Origin: Strigamia acuminata
Lineage: Eukaryota
Assembly (NCBI GenBank): GCA_949358305.1
Contig: OX442314.1
Coordinates: forward strand, 5,890,001 to 5,954,000
Reading direction: 5' to 3'
Length of the DNA: 64,000 nucleotides
In this document: piece after piece, positions 3,976 to 64,000 of the stretch
How the letters are laid out: each line of letters begins with the position of its first letter
Numbering within the stretch: position 1 is the stretch's first letter
Notes under the pieces: generated by a model
The model's database searches: none
Told to the model about the DNA's origin: nothing
The model's input: the letters and a program-made list of their open reading frames with translations, nothing else
Position numbers and translations under genes: made by a program

Positions 3976-5221
3976 CAAAGTATGCAGTGAAGCCGAACAC
4001 AGCACAACTCATAAGCAAACTTAAAATTATTGAATTAGATGGATCGAAGTATTTTTTGTTTGTTTGACCGTGCATTCGAGCGACCAAAAATGACAAAAAA
4101 ATATTTTTTTTTAAGAATAAAATCAATTTCAATTGTTTCCTAAAAGGGCGGTCAAGATAGTCAAGTCCATATTTTTTATATTTTCCATAAATCAATCAAT
4201 CATCGTCATAGACAGAGTTACCATGAGACATAAGACATTACAGTAAACAGAATTGAAGAGCCAAGTCTAAACTCAGCTCTGGTCTGATCCCAAATACGGA
4301 AAAATACTGTATAATGCAGAAAAAATACTTGGTGGGAAGAAATATGCAAAGAATAAGAAAACTACGTACAGAAATTCAACTCGTGATAAAAGATAATGCC
4401 ACCAAACCAAACTGCAGTTTAATTGGTCTGGATGATTTCGTAAACAGTAGAAAACATTGGAGCAGACGTCATACACATTGGCTAATTTTGCTTCTATTTT
4501 GCACATGCATGTTCACTTATCAGACCTACGATCGAATAATGCATTACTTAAGTTATCCTACGGCTGTTGACGTAACGACTACATCGGAAGATATTGAATT
4601 ACCAAATTTGATGATCTGCAGCGGCAACACAAAAGAAATGGCCAGGCTCTGGAATAAAACTTATGAGAACATCAAGACTAATGGACCAATTGATTACGGT
4701 TCAGTCCCATATGGATGTGCAAACATGGTCAAAAGTCTGATGGCAATTCCAAGTTATGATATGGATGAACTTTGGAGAGCGACCAATTTGGCCAAAGAGG
4801 TAGTCAGCATTAAAATAAAGGTAGGAAAAATAAAATTAATTTTTTAAATTTTCGTCCTAATTTAATTTGTTCAGGGATTTTCAAACAAAACAGCTGTTTT
4901 GACGGAAACTGACACTTCGTATGGAATATGCTCAACATTTCAATTTTGTAACTATAAACAAAAAAAAAAGAATGTGTGCTTAAGACCACACCTTAGAAGT
5001 TAACCTTCTTGACATATAAATTGTATTTTTGTAATCTTAATTTATAATTTTCGGTACTCTGAGACCAAAATAATTACACTTTGGGCCAAAATCATTATAA
5101 TTTTGGGCCATTGGTGATTACGAACGAAATGTCACACAAAATATCAAACGAGATGTGTTACAAAAAACAATAGAATCGTTGAATTCGTTGCAGCAAAGTA
5201 CGGAAATACCACGTCGCAACC

Positions 5222-5660
5222 GGTTATAGTCATTTTAGCGACGCTCATTTTAGCGATTTTTACAAAAAAGTCCCATATTAGTGATCACGTTTTAGGTAAT
5301 TTGCCATTAGTAATCGACACGTTTTAGCGACGTGACATTTTAGCGATCGCTACGTTTTAGCGACGCGACACGATTTACCGCGACAAGCCGGCTCAAAAAA
5401 GTGGTTTGCATCAAAATCCAGTAAGGTTAGGTTCGCGGGGGGTGAAGGGGGGCTTAGCCCCCCATGTTAGCCCTTCCTAGGAATTAAACCTAAACTACAT
5501 GGTTAGGTTAATATTAGTGTTAGTATTAGTGCCGTTTTAGCGACCATCACTTTAGCGAACATGTCATTTTAGCGATTTTTGTGCCGCTAAAATGACATGT
5601 TCGAGAAAATGGTGTGTCGCAAAAATAAAATCGCTAAAATGAAATAGCTAAAATGAAGTA
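5222..5660. mobile_element. MITE-like element with TTTTAGCGA subterminal repeats
   Basis: Many TTTTAGCGA motifs on the left mirrored by CGCTAAAATG on the right. Related fragment at ~12271-12366. Confidence 0.5.
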
Positions 5661-5704
5661 CATTCGTTGCAACGGTGTGATCGGGGATCCGTAATATTCG
5701 CAAC

Positions 5705-6744
5705 TAGGCCTGTGCGAATTTGCGATTAATCACAATGCGATTTTTTTTTTGGTGAATATCGCAGCTAGTTAAGTCACTAGCTGTCGTTTGCGATATATCG
5801 CAAACGCAATTATTGCGATTATTGCGATATTGCGATTATTGCGATATTGCGATTATTGCGATATTGCGATTATTGCGATATTGCGATTATTGCGATATTG
5901 CGATTATTGCGATATTGCAATTATTGCGATATTGCGATTATTGCGATATTGCGATTATTGCGATATTGCGATTATTGCGATATTGCGATTATTGCGATAT
6001 TGCGATATTGCGATTATTGCTATATTGCGATTATTGCGATATTGCGATTATTGCGATTACTGCAATTATTGCGATTTAACTTAAATCGCACATACAAATA
6101 ACTTATTGAAATGTATTTTCTGCTGGGCATTGTGGGCACCGAAATTGGAGTGAAGAATATGAAAATTGAACCGGACGTCGTTGCTGCGTGGGACGCGAAA
6201 GACTGTGCACGTGCAGTGCACGAATCTGGACGACTTCTGCAGACGTCAACGCGATTAGTAATCGTCTGCACACTCTGCAGAAGTCGTCCGTCTTCGGCGC
6301 ACAAGTCTAATCGCCGATTACTAATCGGCGATTAGATTTGTGCGCCGAAGTCAGCTGAGCCGATTCGGCTCGGCGGCTGGTCGGCTAGACGCCAGCCGTC
6401 GCTGCCGTGGGGTGACAATTTACAAGCCGCCGCCGCTGATTTTCCATCGTCGAATGGCTTAAATTTTTTTTTCTTTTTGCTTTTTTAGGCGATTCAAAAC
6501 AAAGAAAGCGTAAATTCAATAAATTGCGAGGCATTGTGATATTGCGATATTGCAATTATTGCGATATTGCAATTAGTGCGATTCGTGCGATTATTGCCAT
6601 TATAGCAATTATAGCGATTAGTGCGATTATTGCGATTAGTGCGATTATATCGCGATATATCGCGAATGCGATATATCTGCGATATAATCGCAACAATCTA
6701 ATATTGCATTCGCATTCGCAACAATCCAACATTGCACAGGCCTA
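5705..6744. mobile_element. hAT-like MITE with internal 17-bp tandem array
   Basis: Terminal inverted repeats (TIRs) TAGGCCTGTGC / GCACAGGCCTA. 8-bp TSD TTCGCAAC / TTTGCAAC (7/8 match). Confidence 0.75.
5809..6075. repeat. 17-bp minisatellite (ATTATTGCGATATTGCG)n
   Basis: Direct tandem units. Translations in all three frames repeat every 17 aa. Confidence 0.95.
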
Positions 6745-6875
6745 TTTGCAACATTCTTACGTGCGATAATACCAATCGCATGTAAAAATGGAGTTGCACA
6801 CTGCAAATATTCGTTCAGGCGACAATGTGGGCATATGCGACGTCACGCTTATGAATACACAGAACATGTAAGCTA

Positions 6876-7000
6876 CAGTCGTGTTCAAAAAAACTGGACC
6901 CTCATTATATGCAGGCAATTGACCTTGTCAGTAATTTCGTGTTGCAAACAGTATAAAGGCCCGACGTGATCATGTGTTGTTCCAGTTTGCCCACAGGCGG
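6876..7000. mobile_element. Single end of a Tc1/mariner-like MITE
   Basis: TA|CAGTCGTGTTCAAAAAAACTGGACCCTCA is identical to the terminus of the 32803-33827 element. No partner TIR seen. Confidence 0.55.
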
Positions 7001-7515
7001 CAGTGCTTTTCGTGAGAACTCGTGAAGCGACATGTCTCCTGTGACATCTCGTCCCGAAAGAAGTTTAACTTCAAAAACAAAACCTACGTGATAACACAAA
7101 TATTATTCATTGGTACAGCTAAACCAACTAGCAAATCATTTGTCCGGAAATTATTGAAAGCAACTATTGGAAACACATATTATTACGTCTGCCCAATAGC
7201 TCCGTATCTAGTATGTTGTACAGTATCCAGTATAATGTATCAGAAAATGTAGTTTTTGTTATTTTTTCTTCTTTCTATCATGTCATTTTACGATTATGGA
7301 AGAAACATTCATGTAGCAACACAAAACCTTGGGACCACATTAAAAATAGATTTGAGTTTTAACAAAGTAAACTTTTCAATTGTCTGATAAAACTTGCAAG
7401 TAATATTTATATTACTTTTGACATTTTAGTTCATATTTTTTAATTCCCCGAAGAGTTCATGCTCCAGTGAAAGCGAATACAAAGAATGCTATCGTGGATG
7501 TTTGAGGAAAAAATT

Positions 7516-10044
7516 TGTGACGATTCTACTTTTAGGCTAATTTAATAGCCAATTTGAGATAGACTAGCCACAACCTAACCGAGATAAGCTACGGAAGTCT
7601 TTACAACCGTGAATACGTGATTGAATAGAAATAACTTACAGTTTTGTGTGACATAACATATTTATTAATCATAATAACATAAGAGAATTCTGGGCGCGTG
7701 TAAACAGGCGGCATCAACTGGTTGAGGATCCGGGCGAAGCCAGCGGGATACGGCTGACTTGCGGTATCGTCACAAATAACGCTACGGAGACGTATTTGGT
7801 CCGCAGCTCGATTATCTAATAATGCGAAGAGTCCTTCGCATAAATTGGAATATTCGGCAGAATATTCCATGTTTCAAATGAATAAAAGTAAAGTGATTAA
7901 TGTAATATAACGAATGAATTGTTATATAAATATTAATTGGGCGGGGACCGTCACGACAATTGAGAGAACGTCGCGGGAGTTGTTGAGACTCCATCCGCCA
8001 GCATGCCTTACGACGACAAGATCTCGTGATCAGGCGCCGAGTATTTAATTGTAAACGTTAATTCGCTATTATTGCCAATACAGGATTACCAATGCCCGAG
8101 TAATTTGTTTAGCAGTGTTGTTCAACTCCTGTTCACGGGTTACTAACCCGGAGTGTACAATGGGGCGGGGACCGTCACGACGGTCGAGGGAACAATCGCG
8201 GGAGGATTTGACTCCTCCATCCGCCAGCATGCCTTACGATGGCGGGATCAGTAGATCGAGCACCGGGTAAAATATTAATCAGCCACTGCTGTTGGATTAC
8301 CATTGTCCAGGTAGTTATTTAACGCAATGTCTTCACGGATATTGCTCACGGGCTACCAACCCGGTGAAGCCGGGTTGTTTAGTCGACTTTCACTTAGTCG
8401 ACGCCGTTTAGTCGACGCCGTTTAGTCGACAAGGTCACTTAGTCGACGAGTATTGTCGACTAAGTGACCTGGTCGACTAAACGGCATCGACTAAACGGCG
8501 TCGACTAAACGGCGTCGACTAAGTGAAAAGTGTAATGATACGAGTGTAGCTAGTGACTAGTTGAGACTAAGTGTGATTTTCTACCACTGCAGAACTATTC
8601 AGCTAATATTTTAATGGCTATTGTAGCTGCTATTCACAGTAGCCATCTGTAGGAAAAAGAGTTGCTCTAAGTGTTCATTCTGTCAAATCTCATTGGGTAA
8701 AATCAATTTTAACAGGAAGATAAGCAGTGGCGCAACTACAACGCAACGTTACAGTTTGTGGAGTTACTTTAGTCCGAAAATGACACTCAAAAGTGTTGGA
8801 AATAAACCTGAACTTAACCTAACCTAACCTGGCTTAGCCTATCCTTAACCTAACCTAGAATAGGCCAGGCCAGGCCAGGTTAGGTTAAGGTTAGGTTTAT
8901 TTCCAACAATCTGGAGTGTCATTTTCGGACTCAGGAGGCTTTATTTGATAAGTTTACAAAATTTTGGCCCATTCTGAAGCGGGCCATATTCTTAAGTAAC
9001 TCCACAAACTGTAACGTCGACAAAACGTGCGTCGACTGGATGTACCGTCGACAAGACGTGCGTCGATAAGATGTACCGTCGACAAGACGGAAGCGAACAG
9101 TTGGTCGACTAGCCGACCAAAAATTTGCCGTCGACGAAACGTTTGTCGGCAAAACGACTTGTCGACAAAATGAACGCTTTAAGTCGACTGTCGACTAAAC
9201 GACCGTCGACTAAACGATCTGACCCGAACCCGGTGTAGTGTGCCTGTGAATAAGCCATTGACCGGCCTTTAACATGCGGAGGGACCAACCACGAATGTGG
9301 GGGCCCCGGAAGAACAATTTACAACAACCATCCTGCAGCGGGCTGTGGCCAGTTAGCTGAGGGACCTACTTTCATTTAGCAAGGTCTTACTGTATAAGAC
9401 CGTTATATTAAGCCACCGTACGAACTCTAACTGTCCCGTAGAACAGCAAGCTAACGTTACGGGGCCATTTCATGTTATTAACATGTCTATTACCGGAGTT
9501 AGCCTTCCCGAAATAGCCCTACAACAACAATAACAATCTAGTAATGAATACTAATTGTGGAGAGCTGAGGTGGCCTGATGTGTCGATAGAGAAAGTGAGA
9601 TCAAACGATAACAACATATCAACTACAGACAATATAAACATATTCAGAATCAAGCCAGGGGGATACTGGGTGGAAAACCAATGCTTATATAGTTCTGGAG
9701 AACTACTAGATTGGCGACAGCCAATCAGTGTACGAATCGGCGGATTCGTGGGTCACTAGTCCAGACCTAATATATGACTATGTCCAGATGGGCCCAATTT
9801 GGGTCAAGAAGGGTCTGATTGGTTCCCTTCGACAGGTAAGTAACGTGGATATTGATTCGATAGAATCAACATTGTCAAGTAAGAAATACTTAATTTATAT
9901 TGAATAAAATAGTTATATTTTATTCACTGTGTCAAAGTAATGATTTATCACACTTTCTAGTTTTATTGAGTTTGAATTACGTGCGTTCGTTAAACAGCGC
10001 CATCTATTGTGAACATTGATAAATACCGATTTGTTATCATCACA
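7516..10044. mobile_element. Large solo LTR (with nested insertion) inside exon 5 of copy A
   Basis: TGTGACGAT...ATCATCACA termini, 4-bp TSD AATT, homologous along its length to 28830-30536. Confidence 0.85.
8367..9226. mobile_element. Mutator-like MITE with GTCGAC-rich arms
   Basis: 9-bp duplication AACCCGGTG (8358-8366 / 9227-9235). Absent from the sister LTR at ~29740. TTTAGTCGAC / GTCGACTAAA repeats and a central hairpin at 8771-8930. Confidence 0.7.
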
Positions 10045-11058
10045 AATTTAAAGAACATTTGACATGCAGGTGAGAATGCGTGATGGCTACAATCAGAAAA
10101 ATAAAAAATAATTTTCTTTGCAAGCTTACCCTTTACAAAGACCGATTTACCACCTTGTAAATGTTCAGATAAGACACATGAGCTGTATGGTATTGCGAAT
10201 TGAAACAACAGATCCAAGTGCTGATTGTATTTGTCGACGTCCATGCAAACATTTAATAATTATAACATACACTGATGCGGGCATAGCAGATGATAAAAAC
10301 CGTCTATTTTTGTCACTAGCGATAACTAATAATAAAATCAATGTGTATGAAGAACGGTTCACATACGATATTATTGCTTTACTATCAGATTTAGGAGGCA
10401 ATCTGGGCCTATTTCTCGGTCTATCTTTAACCTCGTTGCCTGAAATCGCTTGGTACCTAGCAAACATTCGGAAAAAAAGACCGGTTAATAAGATTCACCG
10501 AGTTTATGACAAATGTACAAACAAAATAAGTCAGAGTAAGATGCAAATTAAAAGATGTGTACTTTCACGTATTCTTAAGACAATTCTGGTTATAATTTGT
10601 TCCTGGTTCACCTTGTATTGCTTGCAAATTCGTTTGAACTACTACATTGAAGAACCGGTAACAAAAATTGTGAGAATAGTTACACGACGCTTTACCCAAT
10701 ATCCAACGGTCACGGTCTGTGGCGAAACACAAGATGATGATATTGATGAAGCCAGATTGAATTGGTTGAAACAAACTAAGAAAACCTGCAATAATGTATC
10801 ACCGTGGCAATTGCTCAACGGCAACCTGTCATTGCAAGACATCTGGAACACACTAAATGTCCATGACACAGTCTCATTTAATAATGACGTAACTAATACG
10901 GTACATTCCTAAATATAATCATGTGACGAAAATTTGACCGAATTATTTGATATTTATAGCATTTTCGTGGATATAAAACAATGCTTAATGCATCAAAAAG
11001 CCTTCTTCCCCTTCCTTTTGGACATTGTACACAAATCAATTCAGGTATACGTACATAA

Positions 11059-11240
11059 ACACGGGTAAATACACGTACACACGGGTAATTACACGTACAC
11101 ACGGGTAAATACACGTACACACGGGTAAATACACGTACACACGGGTAAATACACGTACACACGGGTAAATACACGTACACACGGGTAAATACACGTACAC
11201 ACGGGTAAATACACGTACACACGGGTAAATACACGTCCAC
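11059..11240. repeat. 20-bp minisatellite (ACGGGTAAATACACGTACAC)x~9, intronic
   Basis: Near-perfect tandem units just after the exon-7 donor of copy A. Confidence 0.95.
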
Positions 11241-12589
11241 ACTTAGATTCAATCTCCTTACAAGCTTAAGCTTAGTTCTATTGGCAAATATAATCTTCTA
11301 CTAATACTCTCACTGCTTTTACTGACCCCGAGTCTTATTTCGGTGATGCGTAAAATCCGCGAGAATGGTTGGCGCGAAATTCCAATTTGCACCAACCAAT
11401 CTCGCTAGGGACAGCAGAAGATCCAAAAGCGCGACGTCGCACTTGCTGATCAGTAAGTGGTACTCTGGTCCTGTGCACTAAACGTGCGCAATAAGCTAGT
11501 TTTGGTGTAACAAAGGAATTTGTTGCACCAAATCCATTGGTTCTGCAAATTACCCTGGCTAAGAGAGGGCGAAGTGTGCCTGGGGAGTTTCCACCCCCAA
11601 GAGACACTTGGCTTGTGTTTAAGTGGTGTTGATGATTTTATATGACATAAAATCAGGATCACCACAAACTAAAATAATTAATACATATTAAATTGAACAT
11701 TGTGTATATAGTAAATTTTTTTGAGATACCCTTAGTGTATTGTGTAGTGTGTAGTGTAGTGTGTAGTGTAGTGCTTGTATTATCAGGCTAGTTTTATGTG
11801 GGCCACCCCGTAGTTACAGCACATTCACACTAAATGATTTCAACACTACATGGTGCTTGCTTTGCTATTACGCCATCAGCTTTATGAGCAGTTACTTGTA
11901 CTTGACTATAATTAAAATTGCACTCTAGATCTAGCTGAAACTTCTGAAAATTGACTGTAATCTCTCAATTATTTTCTAGAAAATACACACAACATAATAG
12001 TTGAGCTTATGTTTACATTTGAATTCCTACAACCTTCAGATGTATGCTACCATGATATGAAGGTAAGCTAAAATCATTAAACAGATAAATACCTTACCCT
12101 CAACAGACTAGAATCCAAACGACTGGATTTCTGTAAATCAGGATTGAAGAAATTTTAAGAGGGGTTCCAAAATAAAAACCTAGTCGTTTGGAGCAGCAGA
12201 AGCAGACCAACCATGTGTTGCGCCATCAAATTTGGAATATTCCTCTGTTTTTTAAACTTTCAGCTTGAGACCACTTTAGCGATGGCCATTTTAGCGACTG
12301 GGTCATTTTAGCAACTTAGGCGACGCTAAAGTGCCGTCGCTAAAACGGGGTCACTATAATGTACCCGATTCAATATGCAGCCACATAATTTTTAATTATT
12401 TCTAATATTATTCAGTTATTCCTAAATAATCTAGCTGAGGAAGTTAACATTTTGGAACCATTGGCGTTAATCTATGGATGGACAAATGATGTTATACTTC
12501 GAGAATTTATGGTAACAAATTAAACAATATACCGGTATGTAAAAAATGTAGTATATCATGTTTACAGAGTATACTGAACTTTATTTTAT

Positions 12590-14695
12590 TGTAAACTATT
12601 AAAGCTGACTCCAAATAAACAAAATGGCGGACCCGCTGGTCCGCGACGCACACACTAGCTTGTTAAAATTCAAAGTGACTTTATTAACAAAACAAACTGA
12701 TTAAATATGAGACTGGTCAGCCCTGATTGGCTGACCACAAGGAACAGCCCCCAATTGGCTGTCTACCCCCAAAACGTCTATCGGACATATTCGCGTATGT
12801 CCGCCCGCCCCCTGGCGATCGTTATCGCCCGTCGAAACCCGAAAAACTCCACACTCGGTCATCCGACTAAACGTCGGCGTCCTCGCCGACGCCTTGTCCT
12901 CTGCTCCCGACATTGCGTCGTCTTTGAACCTCCATTTCCTCATCCGATCACTTGATTTGAGTCTCGTACGCCGATTTCGATTTGTCTTGTTTCCAACTCT
13001 TTGCCTGCGCTTTTTCTCACCGCTCGTTTTATTCTCGTGGCCCGTTTTCCGATCCTCTACGCCTCTCGTGGGTCGAATCAACGCCACCTCCTTCTCTTCC
13101 GCTCGCGTCCCCGTTGCATCGCCGCTCGTTATTCTAATTTTCCGTCGTTTTCCGTTCCTTCGTCGTTGGTTTTCCATCCCTCCATCGCCGTTTGATCCCG
13201 CCATTCCTAGGCCTACGTTAATTTCATCCGGACTCGTCTCACTCGCTTCAGATCTCAAGTCAATTCCATCTAAATTCACGCCTAATTCATCCGTCTTTGC
13301 ATTTAGATTCGATTTAAATGTTTCGGCATTTGTCCCGTCTTCTTCGGCTCGGAAATCGCGTCTATCTCCGCCGCCCTCGAACGTCGCGTATCGTGCTTCT
13401 CTGCCCGGCAGGAGCCCGTCCAACGCGTTGTTTCCGTCAAATTCCACTGGCTGCGCATCCAATTCTTCCGATCTTGCATCGTCTGGACTCGTCTCGATTG
13501 CGTCTTCGTCGTGAATTATCGCCAACACGATCCCCGTTTCTTCCGCTGTCACCGACTTGCCCGAGTTGATTTCTTCGGCAGCTACTCGTGCTTTCGTGTC
13601 GACCTCGTTCATCGCGATTTCCCTCGGTCCGTCGTTGATTCCTGTTACCGGCTTCGCCGCAATTTCATCTTCGCTTTGAGCCGTCTCCTCTTCATCGCTT
13701 TCGTCATCTTCTTCGTCGTTTATGTCCTCTTCTGCGACTCCTAGCTCTATAATTACGGCTTGTCGCAACGCGATAATCATATTGCGCTTTCGTTTCGACA
13801 GCGCAATATTCCGCCCAACCAACAGTGGCTTGATATCTTCGATTCTCAACTTGTCCCACTCAGCCTCAGTTGGAAATTCTCTACGTCTGATCTTTGCTAA
13901 AACTGCCTTTGATGCGGCCCTCTTTTCGTTCGTAATCTTCGTCGTGTTCTTCACTTCTTTCGTCTTTTTTTCCAACGACTGGTTCCATATCGCCGTAAAT
14001 TCTGCTGTTAATCGCGCCGCTTCTTCTTCAATCTTCATCCATCTAGATGTTGGAATTTCTTCGCGTAGGAATTTTTCTAAAATCGCTTTTGTTCCGGCCA
14101 TCGCAATTCGGCTAACCTTCGTAACACGTGTTGTTCCAGCGAATCGACTCTCGTTTCCCGAACCGTCCACGCGCTATTTGCTACCCCGAACTCCGCTTCC
14201 GTTGCCAAAAACAATCGTCGCTTTTTCTACTTCTTCTACTTTTCGTCTACTTTCGTCTACTTTTTCGTCTACTTCTCGTCCCGTAACTCGGCTAACCCTC
14301 GTAACGCGTGGTGTTCCAGCGAATCGTCTCTTCTATTCCCGAACCGGCCACGTAGTTAATTGTTAACCCGAATTTCGTCTGCTTATTCATCTACTTTATC
14401 GTCGCTTAAGATCCATCTATCCCACTTCTGATGTAAACTATTAAAGCTGACTCCAAATAAACAAAATGGCGGACCCGCTGGTCCGCGACGCACACACTAG
14501 CTTGTTAAAATTCAAAGTGACTTTATTAACAAAACAAACTGATTAAATATGAGACTGGTCAGCCCTGATTGGCTGACCACAAGGAACAGCCCCCAATTGG
14601 CTGTCTACCCCCAAAACGTCTATCGGACATATTCGCGTATGTCCGCCCGCCCCCTGGCAATCGTTATCGCCCGTCGAAACCCGAAAAACTCCACA
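12590..14695 (-). mobile_element. Non-autonomous LTR retroelement with a single ORF
   Basis: 264-bp LTRs 12590-12853 and 14432-14695 (one mismatch seen), TG...CA ends, 4-bp TSD TTAT, PBS-like TCAGAAGTGGGAT (tRNA-Leu) on the minus strand. Confidence 0.9.
12701..14170 (-). CDS. Gag-like protein (up to 489 aa) with SAP-like motif, acidic and basic low-complexity tracts
   Basis: Open frame fills the element. WDKLRIEDIKPLLVGRNIALSKRKRNMIIALRQ resembles a SAP helix-loop-helix. No protease, RT or integrase motifs. True start may be MAGTK. Confidence 0.6.
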   Translation of the reverse strand: MDGSGNESRFAGTTRVTKVSRIAMAGTKAILEKFLREEIPTSRWMKIEEEAARLTAEFTAIWNQSLEKKTKEVKNTTKITNEKRAASKAVLAKIRRREFPTEAEWDKLRIEDIKPLLVGRNIALSKRKRNMIIALRQAVIIELGVAEEDINDEEDDESDEEETAQSEDEIAAKPVTGINDGPREIAMNEVDTKARVAAEEINSGKSVTAEETGIVLAIIHDEDAIETSPDDARSEELDAQPVEFDGNNALDGLLPGREARYATFEGGGDRRDFRAEEDGTNAETFKSNLNAKTDELGVNLDGIDLRSEASETSPDEINVGLGMAGSNGDGGMENQRRRNGKRRKIRITSGDATGTRAEEKEVALIRPTRGVEDRKTGHENKTSGEKKRRQRVGNKTNRNRRTRLKSSDRMRKWRFKDDAMSGAEDKASARTPTFSRMTECGVFRVSTGDNDRQGAGGHTRICPIDVLGVDSQLGAVPCGQPIRADQSHI

Positions 14696-25800: not shown

Positions 25801-25804
25801 TTTA

Positions 25805-28009: not shown

Positions 28010-28500
28010 ATGATGCGCAACACTTACGTGATGAGGAAAAATGGTCGAGGATTGAGAAAACTTCGCTTGAAAATTCATGAATTTATGAAAGACGATGAAA
28101 ATCGGCCAAGATGCAGTTTAATTGGTTTGGATGATTTTGTAAACAATAGAATCAGTTGGCGCAATTGCTACGTATTTTGGCTGCTTTTATTCTCATGTTG
28201 CACATATGCATGCTCTCTTACAATAATAGAGTAATGAATTACTTAAGTTATCGTAAGGCAGTCGATGTAACCAGTTAATCAGAAGATGTCATTTCACCAA
28301 ACTTGATGATCTGTAGTGGCAATACAGTCAAAATGGCCCCGCTTTGGAATAAAACTCATCAGATCTTTAAAAAGGAAAGAGAGTGATTGATGAAATGCGC
28401 AAACATGGTGAAAACTTTGTTGAATATCTCTACTCAGGATGTTGATAAACTTTGGAAAGCAACTAATGTGGCCAAACAGATAGTTCACGTAGACATGAAA
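28010..28500 (+). pseudogene. Copy C: exon-1-only pseudogene, paralog of F
   Basis: MMRNTYVMRKNGRGLRKLRLKIH matches F. Frameshift near 28215, in-frame stops near 28276 and 28384, homology lost after ~28545. Confidence 0.85.
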
Positions 28501-41800: not shown

Positions 41801-41801
41801 G

Positions 41802-51100: not shown

Positions 51101-54100
51101 AATATGACGAGAGTTTGCTTACAGCAAACGAAAGGTCTGGTCTCGTGATGACCATCAGGTGCATGATGGATCCCAAAATCCGCTGGTAAGCTCGTTGATC
51201 AACGTTGTATGAATCCCCGAACACGTCAAGATCTTGACCCACCACCATTGGTGTGCAGGCCTTTGCACGACCGTGCAGGTCGAATGTGTCCAGAATTTCG
51301 TCCACGTATTTCTGCTGACCAATCCAAATGCCTTGCTCCGTGATTTGTATCTCGATTCCGAGCAAATAATGGACTTCGCCTAATTCGACGAGATCAAAGA
51401 CCTTTTTCAGTTCCACCAACAGCCATTCCATAATCTTTTCGTCCGAGAAGGCGGCTAGCATGTCGTCCACGTACACCGCGAGGATCAGAATTCCATCTCG
51501 TTCCACGTAAACATAGACGCACGCATCGTCTGCAGTTGGTTGAAGTCCTAGTCTTGTGAGCTCGTCATCCAGGCGCTTATTCCAGCAGCGCCCGGATTGG
51601 CGCAATCCATAAAGGCTTCTTTCAAGCAGGCAAACTTCTTGGTCACTCTGCGAGAATCCCTCTGGTTGATCCATGAAAATTTCGACATCTAAATCTCCGT
51701 GGAGATAAGCTGTCTTGACGTCAAACTGTTTGGTTTTTAATCGCAAGGTCGCCACCAAAAACAAAATTATGCGTAACGACTCGGTGCGGACTACTGGCGA
51801 GAATGTCTCGTTAAAGTCGATGCCAGGGCGCTGGGCATAGCCGACTGCCACAAGTCGCGCCTTGTATTTGCTGATGGACCTGTCGACATTTAATTTAATC
51901 CGGTAGATCCATTTACTGCGAATCGTGCGCATCTCCGGCCGTCGCTTGACCAGTCGCCAAACCTGGTTGACTTGAAGAGAGTCAATTTCGCTCTTCATGG
52001 CGTCGATCCATTTTTCGCGATCAGGACAGCTGATTGCCTCCCCATACGTCTCTGGCGTGTACAACTCGCGCGTGTCTTCTTCTGCGATATTCGCCATCTC
52101 GACGCGCCCTGCCACACGTTCAGAACGACGCACGCCCGACGCAACCAATTGTTGCTCGCGTTCGCGTCTTTCATCTTCGCGACGCAAAGCGACGGCTTCG
52201 GCAGTCGCACCTCGGGGTCGTCCTGCAGCTCGCTCCACTTCTGCAACATCTGGCAATGCTTGTGGTTCTACCACCGGATCCCCGTCTTGCTCCTCCTCCT
52301 CGCGAGCAGGCGGATCCGCTCGAACATCGACCGGTTCGTCTAACTCACGAAGTATTTCTTCCTGGTGTCCGTCCGAACCACGAGCGTTGAGAATCTTTGC
52401 CCCGTTTGACGCTTCATCAAAAACGACTGAGCGTGCTTCCACAACGTCTCCAAACTCAGGGACAAAAATCCTGTAAGCCTTTCGCGTGGCAGAGTAGCCA
52501 ATGAAAACGCCTTGTCGCGCCTTCACGTCAAGCTTGCGTCGCTGACTGTCTGGAATGTGTAGCCACGCTACGCAGCCAAAGACACGAAGAAAAGTGACGG
52601 TGGGCTTCCGCCCCGTCCAAATCTCTTCAGGAACTAATTGACCGTTGGGTTTAGTGGTCGTCCGATTTTTGACGAATGCAGCTGTCGCCAACGCTTCTGC
52701 CCAGAAACGTAAAGGCAGCTTCGAATGTGCCAACAATGTTCTTGCCGTTTCGACCAACGTCCGGTTGGAGCGTTCGGCGATTCCGTTACTGGCCGGATTA
52801 AATGGGACTGTGAGCTCGTGGTCAATCCCATTTGCTTCACAAAAAATGGCAAATTCTCTGCTGGTGAACTCGCCTCCATTGTCCGTGCGTAGTCTGCAAA
52901 TCGTGTTGCCTGTTTGTTTTTCCATCATCAATTTAAATGTTTGGAAAAATCCCAATGTTTGCGATTTCTCCTTCAAGAAATAGACGAATTTCTTCCTGGA
53001 GAAGTCATCCGTCAAAACAAACGCGTATCTCGAACCCGACAACGACGGAACTTGAAATGGTCCCACCAGGTCAGCGTGTATTAATTCTAAAATTTTCTGT
53101 GATTGCTTGCCTGTTATTCGTTTGTGTGGCGCTCTCGTCAGCTTCCCCTCAATGCACGAACTGCATTTGGACAGTTTTTCATCACCGAATTTTATTCCGT
53201 GAACTGCTTCGCGCGCACGCATCTGGTCAAGCGTTTCCTCGTTTAGATGACAGAGTCGTTTGTGCCACAACTCCTTTCCAGTCGTCGTTGACGTTTCTTG
53301 TGCCATGGCGACCGTTTGTTCCTTTTTATTTTCCAAAAAGAACATGTCACCACTCTTCTTGCCTTGTGCCACGAGTCGGCCATTGGGGTCAAGCACGTCA
53401 ACAATTTGGTCGTTAAATACCACCTTGCATTTCTTGGCGGTTAGCTTGGGAATGGAGAGTAGATTTCCTTTCAGCTCCGGAACATATAAAACTTGCAAAA
53501 GCGTTATTTTCTTCACTGTCTCGTCCGGTAAGCGACATTCGATTATAATGTCTCCTCTCCCTTTGGCCATCAACTCCGTGCCTTTCTTCGCCGTCGTGAC
53601 CGTGGCTTCAAATTCTTCCATGTCTGCAAACCATTCGCGGCGGCACGACATGTGCGATGAAGCGCCGGAGTCCAGAATCCACTTGGATCTCGTTGAAAGA
53701 TCGTCTCCCAAATCGACAACGAACGCATGGTGAACGGGCGTTGTGTACGTTTCGTCCTCGAGAACAGCTACGTACGCGTGTTGCGGCGACTCCACCTGTG
53801 CGATTTTTGCCGCTTCCTTCTGCTGCTTGGGTCGTTTCTCGGGGAATCGCACCCAGCAATCCTTGGCTATGTGGCCCGCCTTGCCGCATTCAAAACATGT
53901 TCGTTTATTCCCGTCCTTCGGTTTCTTTCCACCTGAGTTTCTGCCCGCCTGCGCTTTGAGCGCGATTGAACTTGGCACGCTGGTGTTATCGTTCATTGCA
54001 GGTCCCCACTGCTCCTCCGTGAGGAGTCCAGCTCGCAAATCCTCGATTTTTGCATCCAATTTTGAACGATAGTCGCGCCCTGTGGCGTGGTATTTCGGCA

Positions 54101-57100
54101 AAAGTCCCTTAGTGGCGTATAAAATTACCTCTCGATCTGGTATGTCGCGTCCCACGGCCTTTGCCTTGGCCTGGATGGACCTCGCTCGATTTACGTATTG
54201 GTCCACTGACTCGTCTGTACGCATTTTGAGTGTGGTCAGTCGGGCGGCCGCATCAACTTGTTTTTCGACGGTCAACGCGGCGTGTTGGGTTTTCAAATGT
54301 TCCCACATTTCTTTAGCATTCGTCATGCTCATGCACGTCGTCGCTTCCTCGTCCGAAATCGTTAATGCGAGAATTCCTACCGCTTCGCTGTTGTTCTTTG
54401 CCCACGCCTTATGAATTTTGTCCTTGTCATCAAAATCTGCCGCTCCTACAACCGGTTTTTCCGGCTCCGCATCCGTTAATGCACTGGTCAGACCTTTCGC
54501 CTCCAGTAGTGCACCAACCTTGAACCTCCAGACAAAATAATTTCGAACACTGAGCAGTTCTATTCTGTTCAGCGAGCCTGCTGAAATCGCGTCGGCCATT
54601 TTCGAACGTTTCGCGCACGTTTCGATCGTTCTTCGTTCTTTGTTCTTCGTTCTTCTCTTCCTTCTTTATAACTTCGATTTCTTCAAAGTTATATCACAAA
54701 CGTCTTCCTTTTTGACCGTGAATCGTGTCCAAACCCGACTCTGCTACCAAATGTGAAATGTGTAGTAAAAAGAGACGTTTTCGAGTGGAGTGAAAAGAAA
54801 GTGAAAAAACAACTTTACTTGTCAAATGTTTGCGAACAAGTGCGAGTTTTACAACAAGTGCACGTTACCAATACAGATTGGTAGCCGTAGCAACAGAAAC
54901 GACAATTGCGCCTAAAATCTAATTATTACAATACAACAGGCATGAGATTCTGACCCCTAGGATAGAATAAAGGTCATAAACCATTAATACAGTCTCTTGT
55001 GTTCACTTCTATCTAAAGTGTCGTGCATCTGACGCTGTTTAGGCATGCTCGAATGGCATCTGTCCACTCTCACACAAGAATTAAATCTAGAAGGACCGAA
55101 GCAAAAATACTTAAGTGTACTTTTTGAAATTATCAAACGTGGTACTGCTGTTGAGGCAACATTTGACCAAACGGATTTGACAACATGCACCTCTAGCTGC
55201 TTGCTAGTAAAAACTTGGAAGTACTATAGGAAGTACTAAGTAGAAGAGCTTTCGATTAAATTGGGAGTTTTGATGACATTTCAAAGAGACGAAACAAAGT
55301 TATTGTAAAATATTCCATAATCGGTACCTGCATTTATTTGTGAACAATGGCCAAACGGAAGTGGAATGAGATTTTTTGTGATGTCTAGTGATGCTTTATA
55401 TCCAGTAACTTGCTAGAAATTTAAAATAAATTATATAATTATTGTCGAGAATGTTTTAATACTATTACTCGAATTGAATCATCTTTGATGTTGATTGCTT
55501 CGTGCACATGAAGTGATTTCCATATATCTTCCAATGACAATTTCTCATTGAACAATTGCCAGGGCGATGTGTGTTTGCAGGTTTTGTTTTTCTTTAATCT
55601 AGCTTGTTTCATCTCTTCAGTGAAATTTTCACCACAAACAGTGAAAGAAGGAAATTTGATAGTCTGCCGTTGAACTATACTAATGACTTTAGTTGCAGGG
55701 TCACCAATGTAGTGGTTTAAACACATTTGCAACAAATATAAAGTAAATCCTGTGCTAACTATTACCAGTATTAACTTTAGCTTTGCAAAGAGTCCATTTG
55801 GTATAATTTGCTGATTACTAGAAATTGCTTTCCTTTTTAACATTTCATAAATGTGATGAATTTTAATAATTTTATTAACCGGTCTCTTTTTGATAAAATT
55901 TAATAGAATGCAATATAAATACCAAAGTGTTTCGGTTAATGAAAGTATGGATAGACCAAGAAATAGGCCCAGATTGCCTCCTAAATCGGAGAGTAAAGCA
56001 ATAATATCATAAGTGTACCGTTCTTCATACACACTGATTTTCCCATCAGTTATAGCTAAAGATGTAGAAATAATACTGTCATTAACTGCTTGCTCTGTAT
56101 CAATGAACGCTTGAATAACCAGTTGTTGACATGGACGATGACATGAACAACTAGCAACCGAATTGATGGTTTCAACCAATTTATTAGCAATACCGTATTG
56201 CTTGTGAGTGTCAATTGAACTTCTGCAAAGTGGCAAATTTATCTTCTTATCAATAAATGGAAATCTTAAAACAAATACAGAATAAAATGTTGTTGATTAG
56301 ACTAAGAATAAATGCATACATATAGAAATTATTATTTTGCATAAATAACCAAAATTGACATAAAATGCATTAACTGTGGAAATTCGTAAAATAAATACTA
56401 GTACATACACAGTATTGCCATTTTGCCACCATAAAAAAGCTCAGTTATTGAATTTTAAGCCAAGAAAGAAATCAAAATTTTGAATCTTAGACCCATGAAA
56501 ACCAAATTTGGAATTTTATGACCATGAAATCCAAATTTTGAATGTTTCACCAAAAACATCACAAAATTTTGATCATACAAAAACAATATAAAATTTAAAA
56601 TTTAAAAATTATACCATAAATTTTATAAAATGGGGAATTTTATGTCTAATAGTTCAGTTTTAATGTCTAATAGTTAAAAAAAAACCTCCGAAGACGGGGT
56701 ATCTCGCTAAAGCGGGAACTTTCTGCTGGATCCGCCTCTTTGGCCCTCAATAATTCTTAAGCTTATTGAGACAAGCACAATCACACATTGATTCCCGTCA
56801 CCCAAACGTTGCTACAAGCTACACCTTGAGCATGGTGGTGCTGTTGTCTTTGGACAAATAAGTCAGCTCCACCCTGTCCTGTTTACCTGGATCTGTGTAA
56901 CCTCATTAAGTGTTGTGTGTGGCCCGTAATGTCCCTGCTTTTCCGAGGGGGGGAGACGGGACCGCTGGGCCACCCAAAGCTGACCAACGTCACTGCCACA
57001 CACCGCCCGGTGGACCTAAGGTCATCCCTCCTTTGCAGAGTGGTATGATCTAGTAAGGGAAGAGAAGAGAATAGGGGGCAGAGAGTAGGAGAGAGGACAG

Positions 57101-59156
57101 AGGAGAGTGCTTGGTCTCATCTGAGACAGGTGCACATCTGAAGAAGGTCCTGAACCAACAAGAACTATCGTGCTCCGTGCTGACTCTGCTCTTTTCCCCA
57201 TTCACCACTGTGACGCTCAGTACTTACCTAGGTAAGTACGACAGAATGATAATGTTTCCCTGACCACGTCATACATAGGGGGGTTCTCGCCCTGTGTGTG
57301 ACGGGTCAGTTGCCGGTGTGACGTGGTTTCATGGCATCGACAACACGCAGGTGATGGGGGTCTCCAACCCCTAGAGTAACGATTAAAGGGACAAAACCAA
57401 CAATCTGGAGTCTCTTGTCATTATTACGTGAGTATGCATCCCAAATCATGGTAACCAGTCCCCAGGATGCCATTGCGAAGATCATACCAGTCACAGAAAC
57501 CAGCATAATCATACATCTTACCTGCAGGTTAAATTTTCCTTCAATTTCTGTAACAGGCAACTATTATGGCATTCTCTGTATTCACTTTCACTGGAGCATA
57601 AATCCGAAGATGTATTGAGAAATATGTACTGAAATTTAAAATTAAATAAACACTGGAATGATTTAAATTTCTGAGTTTCAAACTGTACTTTGCTGTAACT
57701 CAAACTAAATTTTGTTTTAATCTTAAGATTTGTTCGAGAGATAAAAGTAATTTGTTTTCCAAAATCATTGGGTGACAGCACTAACTAAATATAGAAAAAA
57801 AGTAATAAGAATTAGGTTTCTTTTGTTATGATATTCAAGTTATGAACATTACTTGGTAAGAAGCTACAGGGCAAACTTGATTATTAGATTTTTCAATATC
57901 CACTGTCAGTGATTTTCCAACAAACGAGCTAATCGAATTCTTATCTGACCAAATAAAAATTTTATTTGCCACTTACTATTCACTATTAATAACAGCAATC
58001 GGAACAATTATTCTTTACAGGCCACAAAAACGAAAGCAGAAATCAGGAAATTAACGATCAGATATTCTACTTTCAATTGCCCTCATATAGCCCATTATTT
58101 AAATTTTTTAATTGCATTGTTATAGCTGTCAGCATTGTTGTGCACGTGCTTTTTCTTTTCATATTCAAGGAGGGGTTCTGCCCCCCTGATCCACGGCCCC
58201 CGCCTTTCCCCGACCCCCCTGCCCGCTAACTAGGGTTTCTCTGCCAGTATTTACCAGTATTACAAAACCCATTAAAGAAGTGTGTTATTAACTGCTTTAA
58301 GCAGACACATTAACCAGAAAATATATTTTTTTAAATCAGAACGTGAAATATATTAAATATTTTATACAAAAAGTGAAAAAATCATCAGAAAAAAAATATT
58401 TTTTAAAATTTTACTTTTTAAAATAGGAAAATGAATATAAAAGTATCTATTTACCGAAAAATAGCGGTTTACCGGTTTTTTTGAACATTGATTAGGTGGC
58501 CCATAAAGTATAATTATACCCAGCAATTTATTTACGAAATTGAAACGCTGAGCACATTCCTAAAGTGTAGTCAATTTCCTTACGGACAAAACTTTTGTTT
58601 GTAAATCCCTACGAAAAGAAACTATAAATTGCAAAAGAAAACTATGAATATTTCTTTTTACTTTCATGTCCACTCGAACTATTTGTTTGGCCACATTAGT
58701 CGCTTTCCAAAGTTCATCCACGTCATGAGCAGAGATATTCAACAAAGTTTTCACCATGTTTGCGCATTTCAACATTTGGTCTCTAGGGTTTTTAAAGATC
58801 TGATGAGTTTCATTCCAAAGCCGGGCCAATTCGACTGTATTGCTACTACAGATCATCAAGTTTGGTGAAATGACATCTTCTGATTGACTGGTAACATCGA
58901 CTGCCTTAGGATAACTTAAGTAATGCATTACTCTATTGTAAGTCTGATAACTGAGCATGCACGTGCAACATGAGAATAAAAGCAGCCAAAATATGTGGCA
59001 ATTGCGCCAACTAATTCTATTAGTTACAAAATCATCCAAACCAATTAAATTGCATCTCGGCCGATTTTCGTCGTCTTTCATAAATTGATGAATTTTCAAG
59101 CGAAGTTTTCTCAATCCTCGACCATTTTTCCTCATCACGTAAGTATTGCGCATCAT
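48127..59156 (-). CDS. Copy F: two-module DEG/ENaC channel, 11 exons, apparently intact
   Basis: Exon 1 at 59156-58662, small exons ~58609-57522, junction exon ~56266-55468 (SDLGGNLGLFLGLS...FPSFTVC), exons near 55370, 49070, 48810 and 48650, last exon ~48506-48127 (SDIGSIVGLALGMS). No disabling lesion seen. Confidence 0.85.
50203..54938 (-). mobile_element. Full-length Ty1/copia retrotransposon in intron 7 of F
   Basis: 187-bp LTRs 50203-50389 and 54752-54938 (2 mismatches seen), 5-bp TSD GGCAT, PBS TGGTAGCAGAG (tRNA-iMet), polypurine tract next to the left LTR. Confidence 0.96.
50496..54599 (-). CDS. Copia gag-pol (gag, PR, IN, RT, RNase H) with one in-frame stop at 50901-50903
   Basis: CFECGKAGHIAKDC, WILDSGAS, LWHKRLCH, RTDNGGEF, KARLVA, YVDDML, YSDASW. 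ORF 50496-50873 continues in the same frame. Confidence 0.93.
56955..57495. mobile_element. Degenerate LTR (TGTGAC family) in intron 5 of F
   Basis: Homologous to 60566-61148, ends ACCAGTCACA, preceded by polypurine-like GAGGGGGGGA. Confidence 0.65.
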
Positions 59157-60565: not shown

Positions 60566-61148
60566 TGTGACCGTCGGGCCACCTGGGGTGACCTACGTCA
60601 CTGCCACATACCACCATACGGCACAAGATCACCCCCTGATTGGGCAAGGTGATCTAGCCCGGGGGAAGGAGGGAGCTGAGTGGTGTGGGGAGGAGTTGCA
60701 GAGAGAGAGAATGCGGACACCGACCAGGACGGTCGTGTGTTGAGAGAGTCTGAGGTGCTGTAGTATCGTGGGGACAAGACGTGTCCCGGCTGTGAGGACT
60801 CTGCACTCCTTCCCATTCACCACAGAGACGCTCAGTGTCATGGTGTCGGCCATGATGCAGCGTCCATGAGTGGCTACTGTGGGTCGTAGGTAAGTACGAC
60901 ATGAATGTAACGTTGAACCGACCACGTCACCCATTGGGCTCCTGCCTAGTGTGTGACGGGTCGGTTGCCGGTGCGGCGTGCCTTCGTGGCACCCCTGCAA
61001 CGGGTAACGGGATTCCCCATACCCCTAGACAACGCAATAAAGGCCAACCAACCAATATTGTGGGAGTTTCCGTTATTTACGTGAGTATGCGTCCCAAACT
61101 AGTGTTTGCAGTCCCCTGTTTGCACTAGGCAAGACCATAGCAGTCACA
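60566..61148. mobile_element. Solo LTR (583 bp) upstream of G
   Basis: TGTGAC...GTCACA, 4-bp TSD ATGT. Empty site in the paralogous region at ~24685. Confidence 0.88.
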
Positions 61149-62241
61149 ATGTGTAGATTGCTACATTCATGTAAAGCTTTGGTTGCCAGTCTGAGAAGTC
61201 ACCTTCAAGAACCAAAGGTATAAGTTGAAGCCAGCAAGGGTGACCTAGCCCTCGCCACTCAAGAACCCAACCATGTTATTCGTTTCCATTGAAATATTTT
61301 GCAAATTTTATCTCAAAGTTCTAGACGAAAAACTTTTTTGTCATCTCATGACAGAATTGTTTGGACTTGTTCTTACATGGATTTCCATACATAAGCTTTA
61401 AGGTGGAAATACAAGGGAGCGGATAAAAGTCCAAAGCTTGCTAGTACAAGTTTAAAGAGGGAGTCATTTACAAGTTCACTTGACTCGCTTTTGGCATACC
61501 AGCTTGAATGGCAAACTCAAGCTAGCTAGGTAGCTAGCCAGAAATTCCCGCCAAAATCTCCTCCAAGAATTTCCTCACTAGTCTGATTGGCTGTCAAAGT
61601 CACATGACCAAAACACCAGCAAGCTTGAAGCTGGTAAACCGAATGCGATTTGATCGTACCGGATGAATACAAGCTTTGAATAAAAACGTAAACTTGTGTT
61701 TGCTCAGGTGGGCGAGTTTTTAGCCGCTTTTTCAAGTAAAAGCAAGTTTTAAAATTTTACTCGCTTCTTTGTCTTTCCATCTCATGAGGGAGAGACATGC
61801 AAGTTTTTATTAGAATCTGACACTTTCCTTCTACTTACTAAATCAATGGAATTTTACAGTATATCAATATTTCTGCTGCTTGGATAATTTTAATTTTACG
61901 AGTTTTACACGTGTTACTAGGGAATAAAAACTTGGATCAATTTTGAATTCCACGAGAAACGAACAACATAGTTACCTTGATTACTGACAGATACAACACC
62001 AAACAAACAAGCTCTGTATTTGAGAGGACCATAGAGTTTTAAAAAAAAGCATTTTCTTCAAACATCTTGCGGTAAGTAGCACTGTCGATGGCAAATATTA
62101 GAATTTTGCAGTTTTTATTTGAACTTTTGCACCATTTTGCCATTAGAAACATCGGCATTTACTTCGATAATTTATTAAGACGTCAATTGTGCTACAAGAG
62201 TCTGAACTCATCTCTGGTCTGACTCAATTATCAGAATTATA

Positions 62242-64000
62242 ATGCAGAATTACTTGACCGTAGGAAATAGACGAAGATTACGAAAACTGCGTCTTTCGAT
62301 TCAACTGATGATTAAGGCTGATGCCAATAAACCAAACTGTGGTATAATATGTTTGGACGATTTTGTAAACAGTAGAAAATATTGGAGCGGGCATCATGCA
62401 TTTTGGCTATTTTTGCTCTTATTTTGCACATGCATGTTCATTTACCAGACGTATGACAGAATAATGCATTACTTAAGTTATCCTACGGCCGTTGATGTGA
62501 CGACCAAAGCGGAGGAGATTGTTTTACCGAACTTGTTGATCTGTAGTAGCAACACAAAAGAAATGGCCAGGCTTTGGAATAAAACATATCCACACCTCAC
62601 AACTAAAAAACCAGAAGATATTGACTCAAACGCTTTTGCATGTGCAAATATGGTAAAATCTCTGATGGCAATTCCAACCTACAACATGGATGAACTTTGG
62701 AAGGCAACCAATATGACAAAAGAGATAGTTAGCATAAAAATGAAAGTAATGGAGCTTAATCATTTTTTTGAAGAAAATAATGATTGAGGTATTGTTTCTA
62801 GGGATATTCAAATAAAACAGTTGTTCAGACAGAAACCTACACTACTTATGGAATGTGCTCAGAATTCCAATTTCGTAAATATGTTACCATTACTATTACT
62901 GAATACAGAGGATTAAATCTCTTGAAATTCTTTTGTTGTTGTTAGGTAAAGATTCTAGTAAATCATTTGTTGGAAAATCGCTGACGGTTAATATTGAAAA
63001 ACTTTATGATTATATCTGTCCTGCAACTGCTTACCATGTAATTTTTCTAATATTATGTAATAACAATACTGATTTTCATTATTGCATTAGATCCTTCTAA
63101 CGTTAAATAAGTTTGAAAAACCTTATTTTAGAACGTATACATATCTTGGGATAAACTCAAAAATCAATTTGAGTTACAAAAAGGTAAAATTTTAAAATTT
63201 TTGGTTTATTTTTGTCCCATTGTTATTAATCCATCTTGTATTTCATTTCAGTACATATTTATCAATGCAACTATAAACTTATGCTCCACTGAAAATGAGT
63301 ACAGGAAATGTTTCCACGGTTGCCTGAAGACAATATTAAATAAGAAGCTAACCTGCAGGTAAATCGTAAATATGAATTTTTTTGATTGCATTGATGTCAA
63401 CCTGGCACGTCTTCACCCTCGGCTCTCTCAGCAACGTCTGTCTCTCACCACATCACTCTGCTCTTACCTCCCCTGCTAGGCCGGTCCACTCTTCCAAGAG
63501 GGGCATGGCTTAGGGCCACCAGCGGGTGTGTGTAGTGACGTAGGCCACTAGGGTGGCCAAACGGTCACATTCTTATTCAAAGTTTCAAAAAATTCGTATG
63601 GGTCGTAACAATCGACGTAATTATTGAATATAGTTTTTTCTTTCTAGTTTTCCATTTATTTATTTGAAAACCAATTTATCTCGCTGTGCGTGTTCAAATG
63701 AGGCACAAGAACAATACGGTGCGGCAAATAAAATAATTGATAACACCGATCCATTTGCTGATTGTCTATGTCGTCGTCCGTGTCAACAACTGATTTCTAA
63801 ACCATATGTTGAAATAAAGGCAATCGATAATAAAAAAATGCAATCCATATCTTTAGCAATTACCAATGAGAGAATTAATGTGTACGAAGAACGATACGCG
63901 TACGATGTTATTGCTTTACTATCGGATTTAGGAGGCAATTTGGGCCTGTTTCTCGGTCTGTCCATAATCTCATTAACCGAAGTCATCTGGTATTTATATT
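62242..64000 (+). CDS. Copy G: DEG/ENaC gene, closest paralog of B, runs off window end
   Basis: Exon 1 at 62242-62745, four small exons to ~63358, exon 6 from ~63648 with SDLGGNLGLFLGLS. Module 2 is not visible in this window. Confidence 0.85.
63405..63569. mobile_element. Truncated LTR (TGTGAC family) in intron 5 of G
   Basis: Reverse-complement match to the start of 60566-61148, ends ACGGTCACA. Confidence 0.6.

What the first reader, a model, noticed from the sequence alone, without database searches (positions are those of the whole stretch)
4314..64000. Family of natural tandem-dimer DEG/ENaC channels: two subunits in one polypeptide
Seen: in copies A, B, D and F one uninterrupted exon (e.g. 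35030-35831, 21410-20609) encodes the CxCxRPC ectodomain end and TM2 (LLSDLGGNLGLFLGLS), a ~40-aa basic linker with no stop, then a second TM1 and (F/Y)P(S/T)xTVC. A second ectodomain and TM2 follow, giving ~810 aa with four TM helices. Established: DEG/ENaC/ASIC/pickpocket subunits have two TM helices and assemble as trimers. Inference: a covalent dimer cannot form a symmetric trimer alone. Options are a 2+1 assembly with a separate subunit, three chains forming two linked pores, exclusion of one module, or linker cleavage. Retention in several diverged paralogs suggests selection. I cannot tell whether this architecture has been reported before.
Basis: partly seen in the sequence, partly recalled or inferred. 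Interest (0 to 1): 0.92.

Follow-up and report, generated by a model that had tools for sequence, protein, structure and literature searches.

The report
Centipede two-in-one ENaC channel genes
Three intact genes in this window, likely from a centipede, each join two different ENaC/ASIC-type channel subunits in one reading frame; these channels normally work as trimers, so the predicted two-subunit chain likely needs a separate third subunit, an arrangement I did not find in the papers searched.

Summary
Confirmed and extended. Copies B, D and F splice to open frames of 810, 813 and 803 aa with two Pfam ASC modules and four predicted TM segments. The TM2-linker-TM1 junction lies inside exon 6. 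Both modules have the same five introns at aligned positions but share only ~21% identity. dN/dS is ~0.4, and lower in both pore helices. Copy A is a pseudogene. Strigamia maritima models carry the same junction (16 of 21 proteins looked up). In a tree, first modules group with first and second with second: one old fusion, then whole-gene duplication, not merged gene models. The closest characterised relatives are the centipede antennal homotrimers PDPNaC1 and BRTNaC1. Most likely the chain supplies two subunits of a heterotrimer and a free subunit completes it; this is inferred. There is no transcript or functional evidence. A separate, unnamed lineage appears to encode three-module single chains. 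Ten literature searches found no natural multi-module DEG/ENaC.

The parts
30969..38411 (+). Copy D, intact 11-exon tandem DEG/ENaC gene, 813 aa. Exons 30969-31475, 31535-31607, 31679-31770, 31828-31920, 31990-32096, 35030-35831, 35891-35975, 37477-37556, 37694-37789, 37849-37958, 38015-38411
35030..35831 (+). D exon 6: end of ectodomain 1, TM2 of module 1 (~35283-35381), linker (~35382-35495), TM1 of module 2 (~35496-35567), start of ectodomain 2
19074..23820 (-). Copy B, intact 11-exon tandem gene, 810 aa; exon 6 at 21410-20609; exon 3 needs an AAG acceptor shifted by a small deletion
48127..59153 (-). Copy F, intact 11-exon tandem gene, 803 aa, ~55% identical to B and D; exon 6 at 56264-55469; copia element in intron 7
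4314..15373 (+). Copy A, pseudogene of the same two-module gene (exon 5 split by an insertion, frameshift in exon 6, LTR element just before exon 10)
62242..64000 (+). Copy G, module 1 open through TM2; cut by the window end before the linker
28013..28512 (+). Copy C, broken exon-1 relic closest to F
39298..39579 (-). Copy E, truncated exon-1 relic

Best explanation
These genes join two diverged DEG/ENaC subunits (A then B) in one reading frame, and the predicted four-TM chain likely fills two of the three positions of a heterotrimeric cation channel, with a separately encoded single-module subunit likely filling the third. Shown: the open junction, the repeated exon structure, the position-specific clades and purifying selection on both pore helices. 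Inferred origin: the last exon of one gene fused to the first exon of its tandem neighbour; the linker is the trimmed N-terminus of B; the fused gene then duplicated many times. Inferred function: a sensory, probably weakly selective cation channel with fixed A-B order and an asymmetric pore, like its centipede antennal relatives. The stimulus and the third subunit are untested.
For: Open frames in B, D and F. Intron phases 0,1,0,0,2 repeat at aligned columns (within 3 columns) in both modules, which are 20-23% identical. dN/dS 0.36-0.40 overall, 0-0.15 for TM2 of A and 0.13-0.19 for TM2 of B. All 10 second modules in the tree form one clade with one free protein (99/96), and all 12 first modules another (86/87). 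AU tests reject grouping by gene (p 4e-8 and 2.5e-5). At the PDPNaC1 lower-gate position Gly375, 23 of 23 readable first modules have Gly (1 of 24 not parsed), against 1 of 10 second modules (7 Ser, 2 Asn). PDPNaC1 is a homotrimer (PMC12714832), its entry and the BRTNaC1 entries have three chains each, and the Pickpocket 26 entries have a 1:2 chain ratio. Single-module proteins exist in the same clade; P0076 groups with the B modules and has a full N-terminus.
Against: No transcript, protein or current was seen. No free subunit lies in the window, and the species of P0076 and the other single-module proteins was not looked up; P0076 could be a split model. Engineered ASIC1a dimers gave currents when expressed alone, though with lower-mass products (PMC4529235), so a third gene may not be needed. 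The linker itself is weakly constrained against F (dN/dS 0.62 and 0.79), and a neutral linker would stay open in 9-17% of simulations at 0.5-1 substitutions per site, no indels modelled. Support for the first-module clade is moderate, long branches meet, and one second module (P0009) joined its clade only after a chimeric model (P0116) and 13 other proteins were dropped.
Confidence: 0.55

Rival explanations
1. The chain assembles with itself: a trimeric pore takes A-B from one chain and one module from another. The spare module either hangs out or joins a second pore, so that three chains form two linked pores (A2B and AB2).
For: Engineered ASIC1a 2-mers and 4-mers conduct when expressed alone, and the authors consider exclusion of a subunit (PMC4529235). 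Both TM2 helices are constrained. No free subunit is in the window.
Against: A 36-39 aa linker would hold two large ectodomains very close. A module that is routinely left out would not need a constrained pore helix. Free relatives exist in the clade.
Confidence: 0.2
2. The modules are made or end up separate, through linker cleavage or through separate transcripts for A and B, so the channel is an ordinary heterotrimer with co-ordinated expression.
For: The linker is rich in Lys/Arg. 19 of 23 linkers hold a Met. F has poly(A)-type hexamers in its linker. ASIC concatemers give lower-order by-products.
Against: There is no stop after TM2 of A in A, B, D or F. Met density in the linkers equals background (25 of 927, p 0.37) and its position is scattered. 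The linker is predicted to be cytosolic, away from furin-type proteases (established topology). Intron 5 is only 289 nt in G and 55 nt in A, little room for an internal promoter. The linker hexamers are absent from B and D.
Confidence: 0.13
3. Two chains form a four-module (AB)2 channel, a tetrameric DEG/ENaC.
For: It is the simplest symmetric use of a dimer, as in K2P and TPC channels (recalled). Cross-linking data were read as an ASIC1a tetramer (PMC4529235).
Against: The centipede relatives' PDB entries have three chains each and PDPNaC1 is described as a homotrimer. The trimer-type Cys pattern and TM2 motifs are kept.
Confidence: 0.08
4. Artefact: two neighbouring genes joined by assembly error or gene prediction.
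For: Such merges occur: the modules of P0037 (Polypedilum), P0065 (Abscondita), P0043 and P0148 group by gene, with irregular junctions. The S. maritima evidence consists of automatic models.
Against: Here the junction is inside one exon in four copies on both strands, contigs cross it unchanged, and the modules group by position.
Confidence: 0.03

Closest known systems
PDPNaC1 (PDB 9JF7; Scolopendra subspinipes mutilans; PMC12714832)
   Same: Best PDB match to exon 6 (E 6e-12); same myriapod branch (97, FastTree); compact ~420-aa module; no His-Gly motif; Asp372, Gly378 and Gly382 positions largely kept in both modules.
   Different: A single two-TM subunit and a homotrimer; eight introns. 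Position 376 is Asn (module A) or mostly Ile (module B), not the Ser behind its proton block.
BRTNaC1 (PDB 8YMR and others; PMC9974506)
   Same: Best PDB match to the last exon of module B (E 3e-4) and second for exon 6; centipede antennal DEG/ENaC.
   Different: A single 431-aa two-TM subunit; heat-gated. No gating data exist for the tandem genes.
Strigamia maritima uncharacterised UniProt models (T1JEH2, T1JGJ4, T1JEG4, T1IYF0, T1JD34, T1ITL7, T1J963, T1IPM9 and others)
   Same: Same TM2-linker-TM1 junction; T1JEH2 is 56-58% identical to B, D and F. The architecture therefore already sits, unnamed, in public databases.
   Different: Automatic, often partial models labelled 'Uncharacterized protein'; I found no paper on them.
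Engineered ASIC/ENaC concatemers (PMC4529235, PMC10329638)
   Same: Head-to-tail subunits in one chain; such constructs conduct.
   Different: Artificial; they have added linkers between full subunits, whereas here the linker is natural and the two modules are ~21% identical.
Tandem-domain P-loop channels K2P, TPC, Nav/Cav (recalled)
   Same: Fusion of channel subunits into one chain, which fixes order and allows an asymmetric pore.
   Different: An unrelated fold with four-fold symmetry, which two or four repeats satisfy; two repeats do not satisfy three-fold symmetry.

Membership tests
DEG/ENaC/ASIC superfamily (Pfam ASC PF00858), per module | Match to PF00858 above the curated cut-off | tested here: met
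   10 of 10 exon-sized pieces from both modules score 39-72 bits against a cut-off of 23.6
DEG/ENaC/ASIC superfamily (Pfam ASC PF00858), per module | TM1, Cys-rich ectodomain, TM2 in each module | tested here: met
   Hydropathy and module alignment; TM1 of F module 1 is below the hydropathy cut-off but aligns
DEG/ENaC/ASIC superfamily (Pfam ASC PF00858), per module | TM2 Asp/Gly pattern and GxS motif | tested here: met
   GLS in module A and GMS in module B of B, D and F
DEG/ENaC/ASIC superfamily (Pfam ASC PF00858), per module | Pre-TM1 His-Gly motif | tested here: not met
   Module A has Ile-Gly; module B has lost the segment. PDPNaC1 also lacks it and conducts
Canonical DEG/ENaC subunit | Two TM helices and one ectodomain per polypeptide | tested here: not met
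   Four predicted TM segments and two ectodomains per open frame
Canonical DEG/ENaC subunit | Assembly as a trimer | not testable with these tools
   Needs subunit counting or cryo-EM
Canonical DEG/ENaC subunit | Amiloride-sensitive cation current | not testable with these tools
   Needs expression and recording
Myriapod PDPNaC1/BRTNaC1 branch | Modules fall in one clade with PDPNaC1 and BRTNaC1 | tested here: met
   54-row clade, support 97 in FastTree with long branches; P0040 and P0081 identified by matching length and aligned range to the PDB chains
Insect pickpocket subfamilies | Closest relationship to insect ppk | tested here: inconclusive
   Pickpocket 26 is only a weak PDB match (E 0.03); the two named insect proteins fall outside the clade; no ppk reference set was in the tree

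The most novel reading that the evidence does not exclude
DEG/ENaC channels have taken the Kv-to-Nav route more than once. Centipedes fused two subunits, and their chain breaks the trimer rule by forming (AB)3 twin linked pores or an (AB)2 four-module pore. A second animal lineage (P0063, P0113 and at least 12 related proteins) fused three subunits into a single-chain pseudo-trimer. The repeated-fusion half is fairly well supported (about 0.7); the non-trimeric assembly is the bold half and sets the probability.
Probability: 0.22. Interest if true: 0.95.

Novelty: new variant of a known kind. Interest (0 to 1): 0.82.

Why it matters
The DEG/ENaC papers read here describe two-TM subunits that form trimers, and concatemers only as lab constructs. 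A natural, old, expanded two-subunit chain creates a symmetry mismatch that evolution has solved somehow. It gives a natural test of subunit order, pore asymmetry and the old trimer-versus-tetramer question. It also points to a large undescribed channel family, probably sensory, in centipedes, next to their known heat and acid sensors. Pipelines that require two TM helices or split double-domain models would miss or break these genes.

Tried and rejected
No whole genome is held, so copy number and free subunits elsewhere in this genome are unknown. RNA: no RNA holder listed; the two listed runs show no joints at the predicted introns among those printed and behave as DNA; this says nothing on expression. 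Loose ends around the junction continue as paralog-like sequence in the 12 rows shown of 87; no conclusion on free module-A genes. Word-index protein searches found only T1JEH2 or the query itself. The single-sequence AlphaFold model of T1JEH2 was unusable (pLDDT 32); no model of a window protein was made. No complex prediction was run: a tandem chain plus a third subunit exceeds 1000 residues, and cut modules would pass by likeness to solved trimers. A metagenome scan with the junction alignment found nothing. A scan for the three-module family gave 3 loci, none with a multi-module frame among ORFs of 100 aa or more, so that family is not confirmed at DNA level. The Atlas gave only single-module ASC clusters for P0113; the exon-6 query did not complete. 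A mixture-model tree of 146 modules did not finish; FastTree and LG+G4 were used. A conserved internal start codon was rejected. Copy A as a functional gene was rejected. Earlier scan notes held no fused-subunit case.
Full report
Observation. Motif and self-similarity scans show seven related copies in the window. Spliced at GT-AG borders, D (30969-38411, +), B (23820-19074, -) and F (59153-48127, -) give 11-exon open frames of 813, 810 and 803 aa. Pfam ASC matches 10 of 10 pieces scanned, and exon 6 in two stretches. A is a pseudogene: an 8-nt deletion early in exon 6, a ~2.5-kb insertion in exon 5, and an LTR element ending 11 nt before exon 10. C and E are exon-1 relics, and G is open until the window ends. 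Contigs from two public runs cross the D linker with no difference, but they may be the source sample.

Origin. The two modules are only 20-23% identical, yet each has five introns of phases 0, 1, 0, 0, 2 at aligned positions. Exon 6 therefore reads as the last exon of one gene joined to the first exon of a diverged paralog. B and D are 86% identical, and both are ~55% identical to F. dN/dS is 0.36-0.40 overall, 0-0.15 in TM2 of module A and 0.13-0.19 in TM2 of module B (Nei-Gojobori counts). The linker is constrained between B and D (0.12, on few changes) but weakly against F (0.62, 0.79). One neutral linker would stay open in 9-17% of simulations at 0.5-1 substitutions per site (no indels modelled), so the window alone does not prove selection on the junction; the wider family does more.

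Relatives. The best database match is Strigamia maritima T1JEH2 (57% over 98% of exon 6), so the window is probably from a related centipede. HMMER found 233 proteins and listed 150. Of these 150, 43 have a TM2 block followed by a TM1 block (46 of 153 rows including my three models). By junction and tree I sorted the 43 into four groups: 21 of the window's two-module family, 4 of a second Strigamia group, 11 of a three-module family, and 7 others. Of 21 proteins looked up, 16 are S. maritima, 1 Polypedilum, 1 Abscondita and 3 unnamed. All named S. maritima entries are automatic 'Uncharacterized protein' models, many partial. In an IQ-TREE tree of 38 modules, all 10 second modules group together with one single-module protein, P0076 (99/96), and all 12 first modules group together (86/87), with similar sub-branching. 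In the earlier 52-row tree the second module of P0009 sat with the first modules beside P0116, which looks like a chimeric model. I dropped P0116 and 13 other proteins before the final tree. AU tests reject the two F modules as a clade (p 4e-8) and all window-type modules as a clade (p 2.5e-5) (groups named after seeing trees, LG+G4, long branches). By contrast, the modules of P0037, P0065, P0043 and P0148 group by gene, as merged neighbours would. The centipede genes thus descend from one old fusion followed by whole-gene duplication.

Pore. Using PDPNaC1 numbering (PMC12714832, passages), first modules keep the lower-gate Gly375 in 23 of 23 readable cases (24 examined), with Asn376 in 22. 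Second modules have Gly375 in 1 of 10 (7 Ser, 2 Asn). Both keep Gly382 in every case. This is a conserved asymmetry; from memory, alpha-ENaC has Ser and beta/gamma-ENaC Gly at this position. Neither module has the pre-TM1 His-Gly motif; the paper links that loss in PDPNaC1 to broader cation selectivity.

Mechanism. The closest solved channels are the centipede antennal channels PDPNaC1 and BRTNaC1. They are single two-TM subunits, with three chains per entry (PMC12714832 and PMC9974506, passages). The Pickpocket 26 entries have a 1:2 chain ratio, and ASIC2a/3 heteromers are 1:2 (PMC10329638, listing and passages). With both pore helices constrained, the simplest reading is an A-B chain plus a free third subunit. 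Single-module proteins exist in the clade, and P0076 has an N-terminus that aligns with the natural start of module A; its species was not looked up and it could be a split model. I put this at 0.55; the one-chain architecture alone I put at about 0.9. Self-assembly with a spare module or linked pores (0.2) is kept alive by engineered ASIC1a dimers that conduct alone, although with smaller by-products (PMC4529235, passages). Separate modules (0.13) lack a stop codon, a conserved internal Met (25 of 927 linker residues, p 0.37) or room for a promoter in the short intron 5 of G and A. A tetramer (0.08) and an artefact (0.03) are unlikely. No RNA, protein or current was observed.

A second, independent case. 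Eleven multi-block hits, plus P0093, P0107 and P0150, align as ~1000-1300-aa proteins with three TM2-like motifs (P0053 is a partial 725 aa). Their first and third modules form separate clades (99 and 97, FastTree) outside the myriapod branch. P0063 is on 5.2-kb and 10.5-kb contigs, and P0113 (1272 aa) is on a 4.7-kb contig, which leaves little room for introns. An alignment-based model of P0063 (pLDDT 67, pTM 0.54) has six long helices at the expected places and matches ASIC1 structures. The organisms are unnamed and DNA-level confirmation failed. In most members the middle ectodomain is shrunken. S. maritima T1IU28 and T1IZL2 also show two junctions each, but their modules group together, so these may be recent fusions or merged models.

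Literature. Ten full-text searches listed no paper on natural two- or three-module DEG/ENaC proteins. Term look-ups found no 'fusion' or 'fused' in the mite ENaC survey (PMC5203786), the insect PPK survey (PMC8438182; it counts 46 PPKs with three to five predicted TMs) or the Nematostella survey (PMC9822975). 'ENaC' does not occur in the main text of the Strigamia genome paper (PMC4244043), and the decapod passages mention no multi-domain forms (PMC7067487). I read passages only, and no supplements. Vizueta et al. 2020, which annotated Strigamia candidates according to PMC8438182, was not seen, and subscription papers are missing from the library.

Verdict. Each module belongs to the DEG/ENaC superfamily, but the polypeptide fails the two-TM subunit definition: a new variant of a known kind, present but unnamed in databases. 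Interest 0.82.

Noticed in passing
database proteins P0063/P0151, P0113, P0097, P0045, P0053, P0055, P0064, P0067, P0073, P0085, P0093, P0107, P0108, P0150: A family of apparent three-module, six-TM DEG/ENaC single chains from an unnamed animal lineage, separate from the centipede family, with position-specific module clades; the middle ectodomain is shrunken in most.
   Followed up: partly
P0005 (T1IU28), P0006 (T1IZL2), P0010, P0014: A second Strigamia maritima group with two or three closely related modules per model; recent concatemers or merged gene models.
   Followed up: partly
window 30969-31124 versus 23820-23668: The first ~50 codons of B and D differ far more (dS ~1.0) than the rest (0.07-0.46); the D start resembles A and the B start resembles G, which suggests exon-1 gene conversion or mosaic duplication.
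   Followed up: no
window 50203-54938: Near-intact copia retrotransposon in intron 7 of F, with ~187-nt LTRs 98.9% identical.
   Followed up: partly
window 41802-46789, 1411-3708, 1-933, 12590-14695: BEL/Pao element, a gypsy-like pol frame (Pfam RVT_1; class judged by eye), a copia fragment, and a small LTR element (264-nt repeats, 99.6%) in intron 9 of A.
   Followed up: partly
window ~38290-38320 and ~19200: TM2 of module B has a Leu-to-Ser change before the GxS glycine in D, and Cys instead of Ser just before the conserved Asp in B; these may alter pore properties or mark early decay.
   Followed up: no
L002 703-1260 and 1604-3170: Two separate ENaC-like genes head to tail with a stop after the first TM2, the arrangement from which such a fusion could arise.
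   Followed up: no
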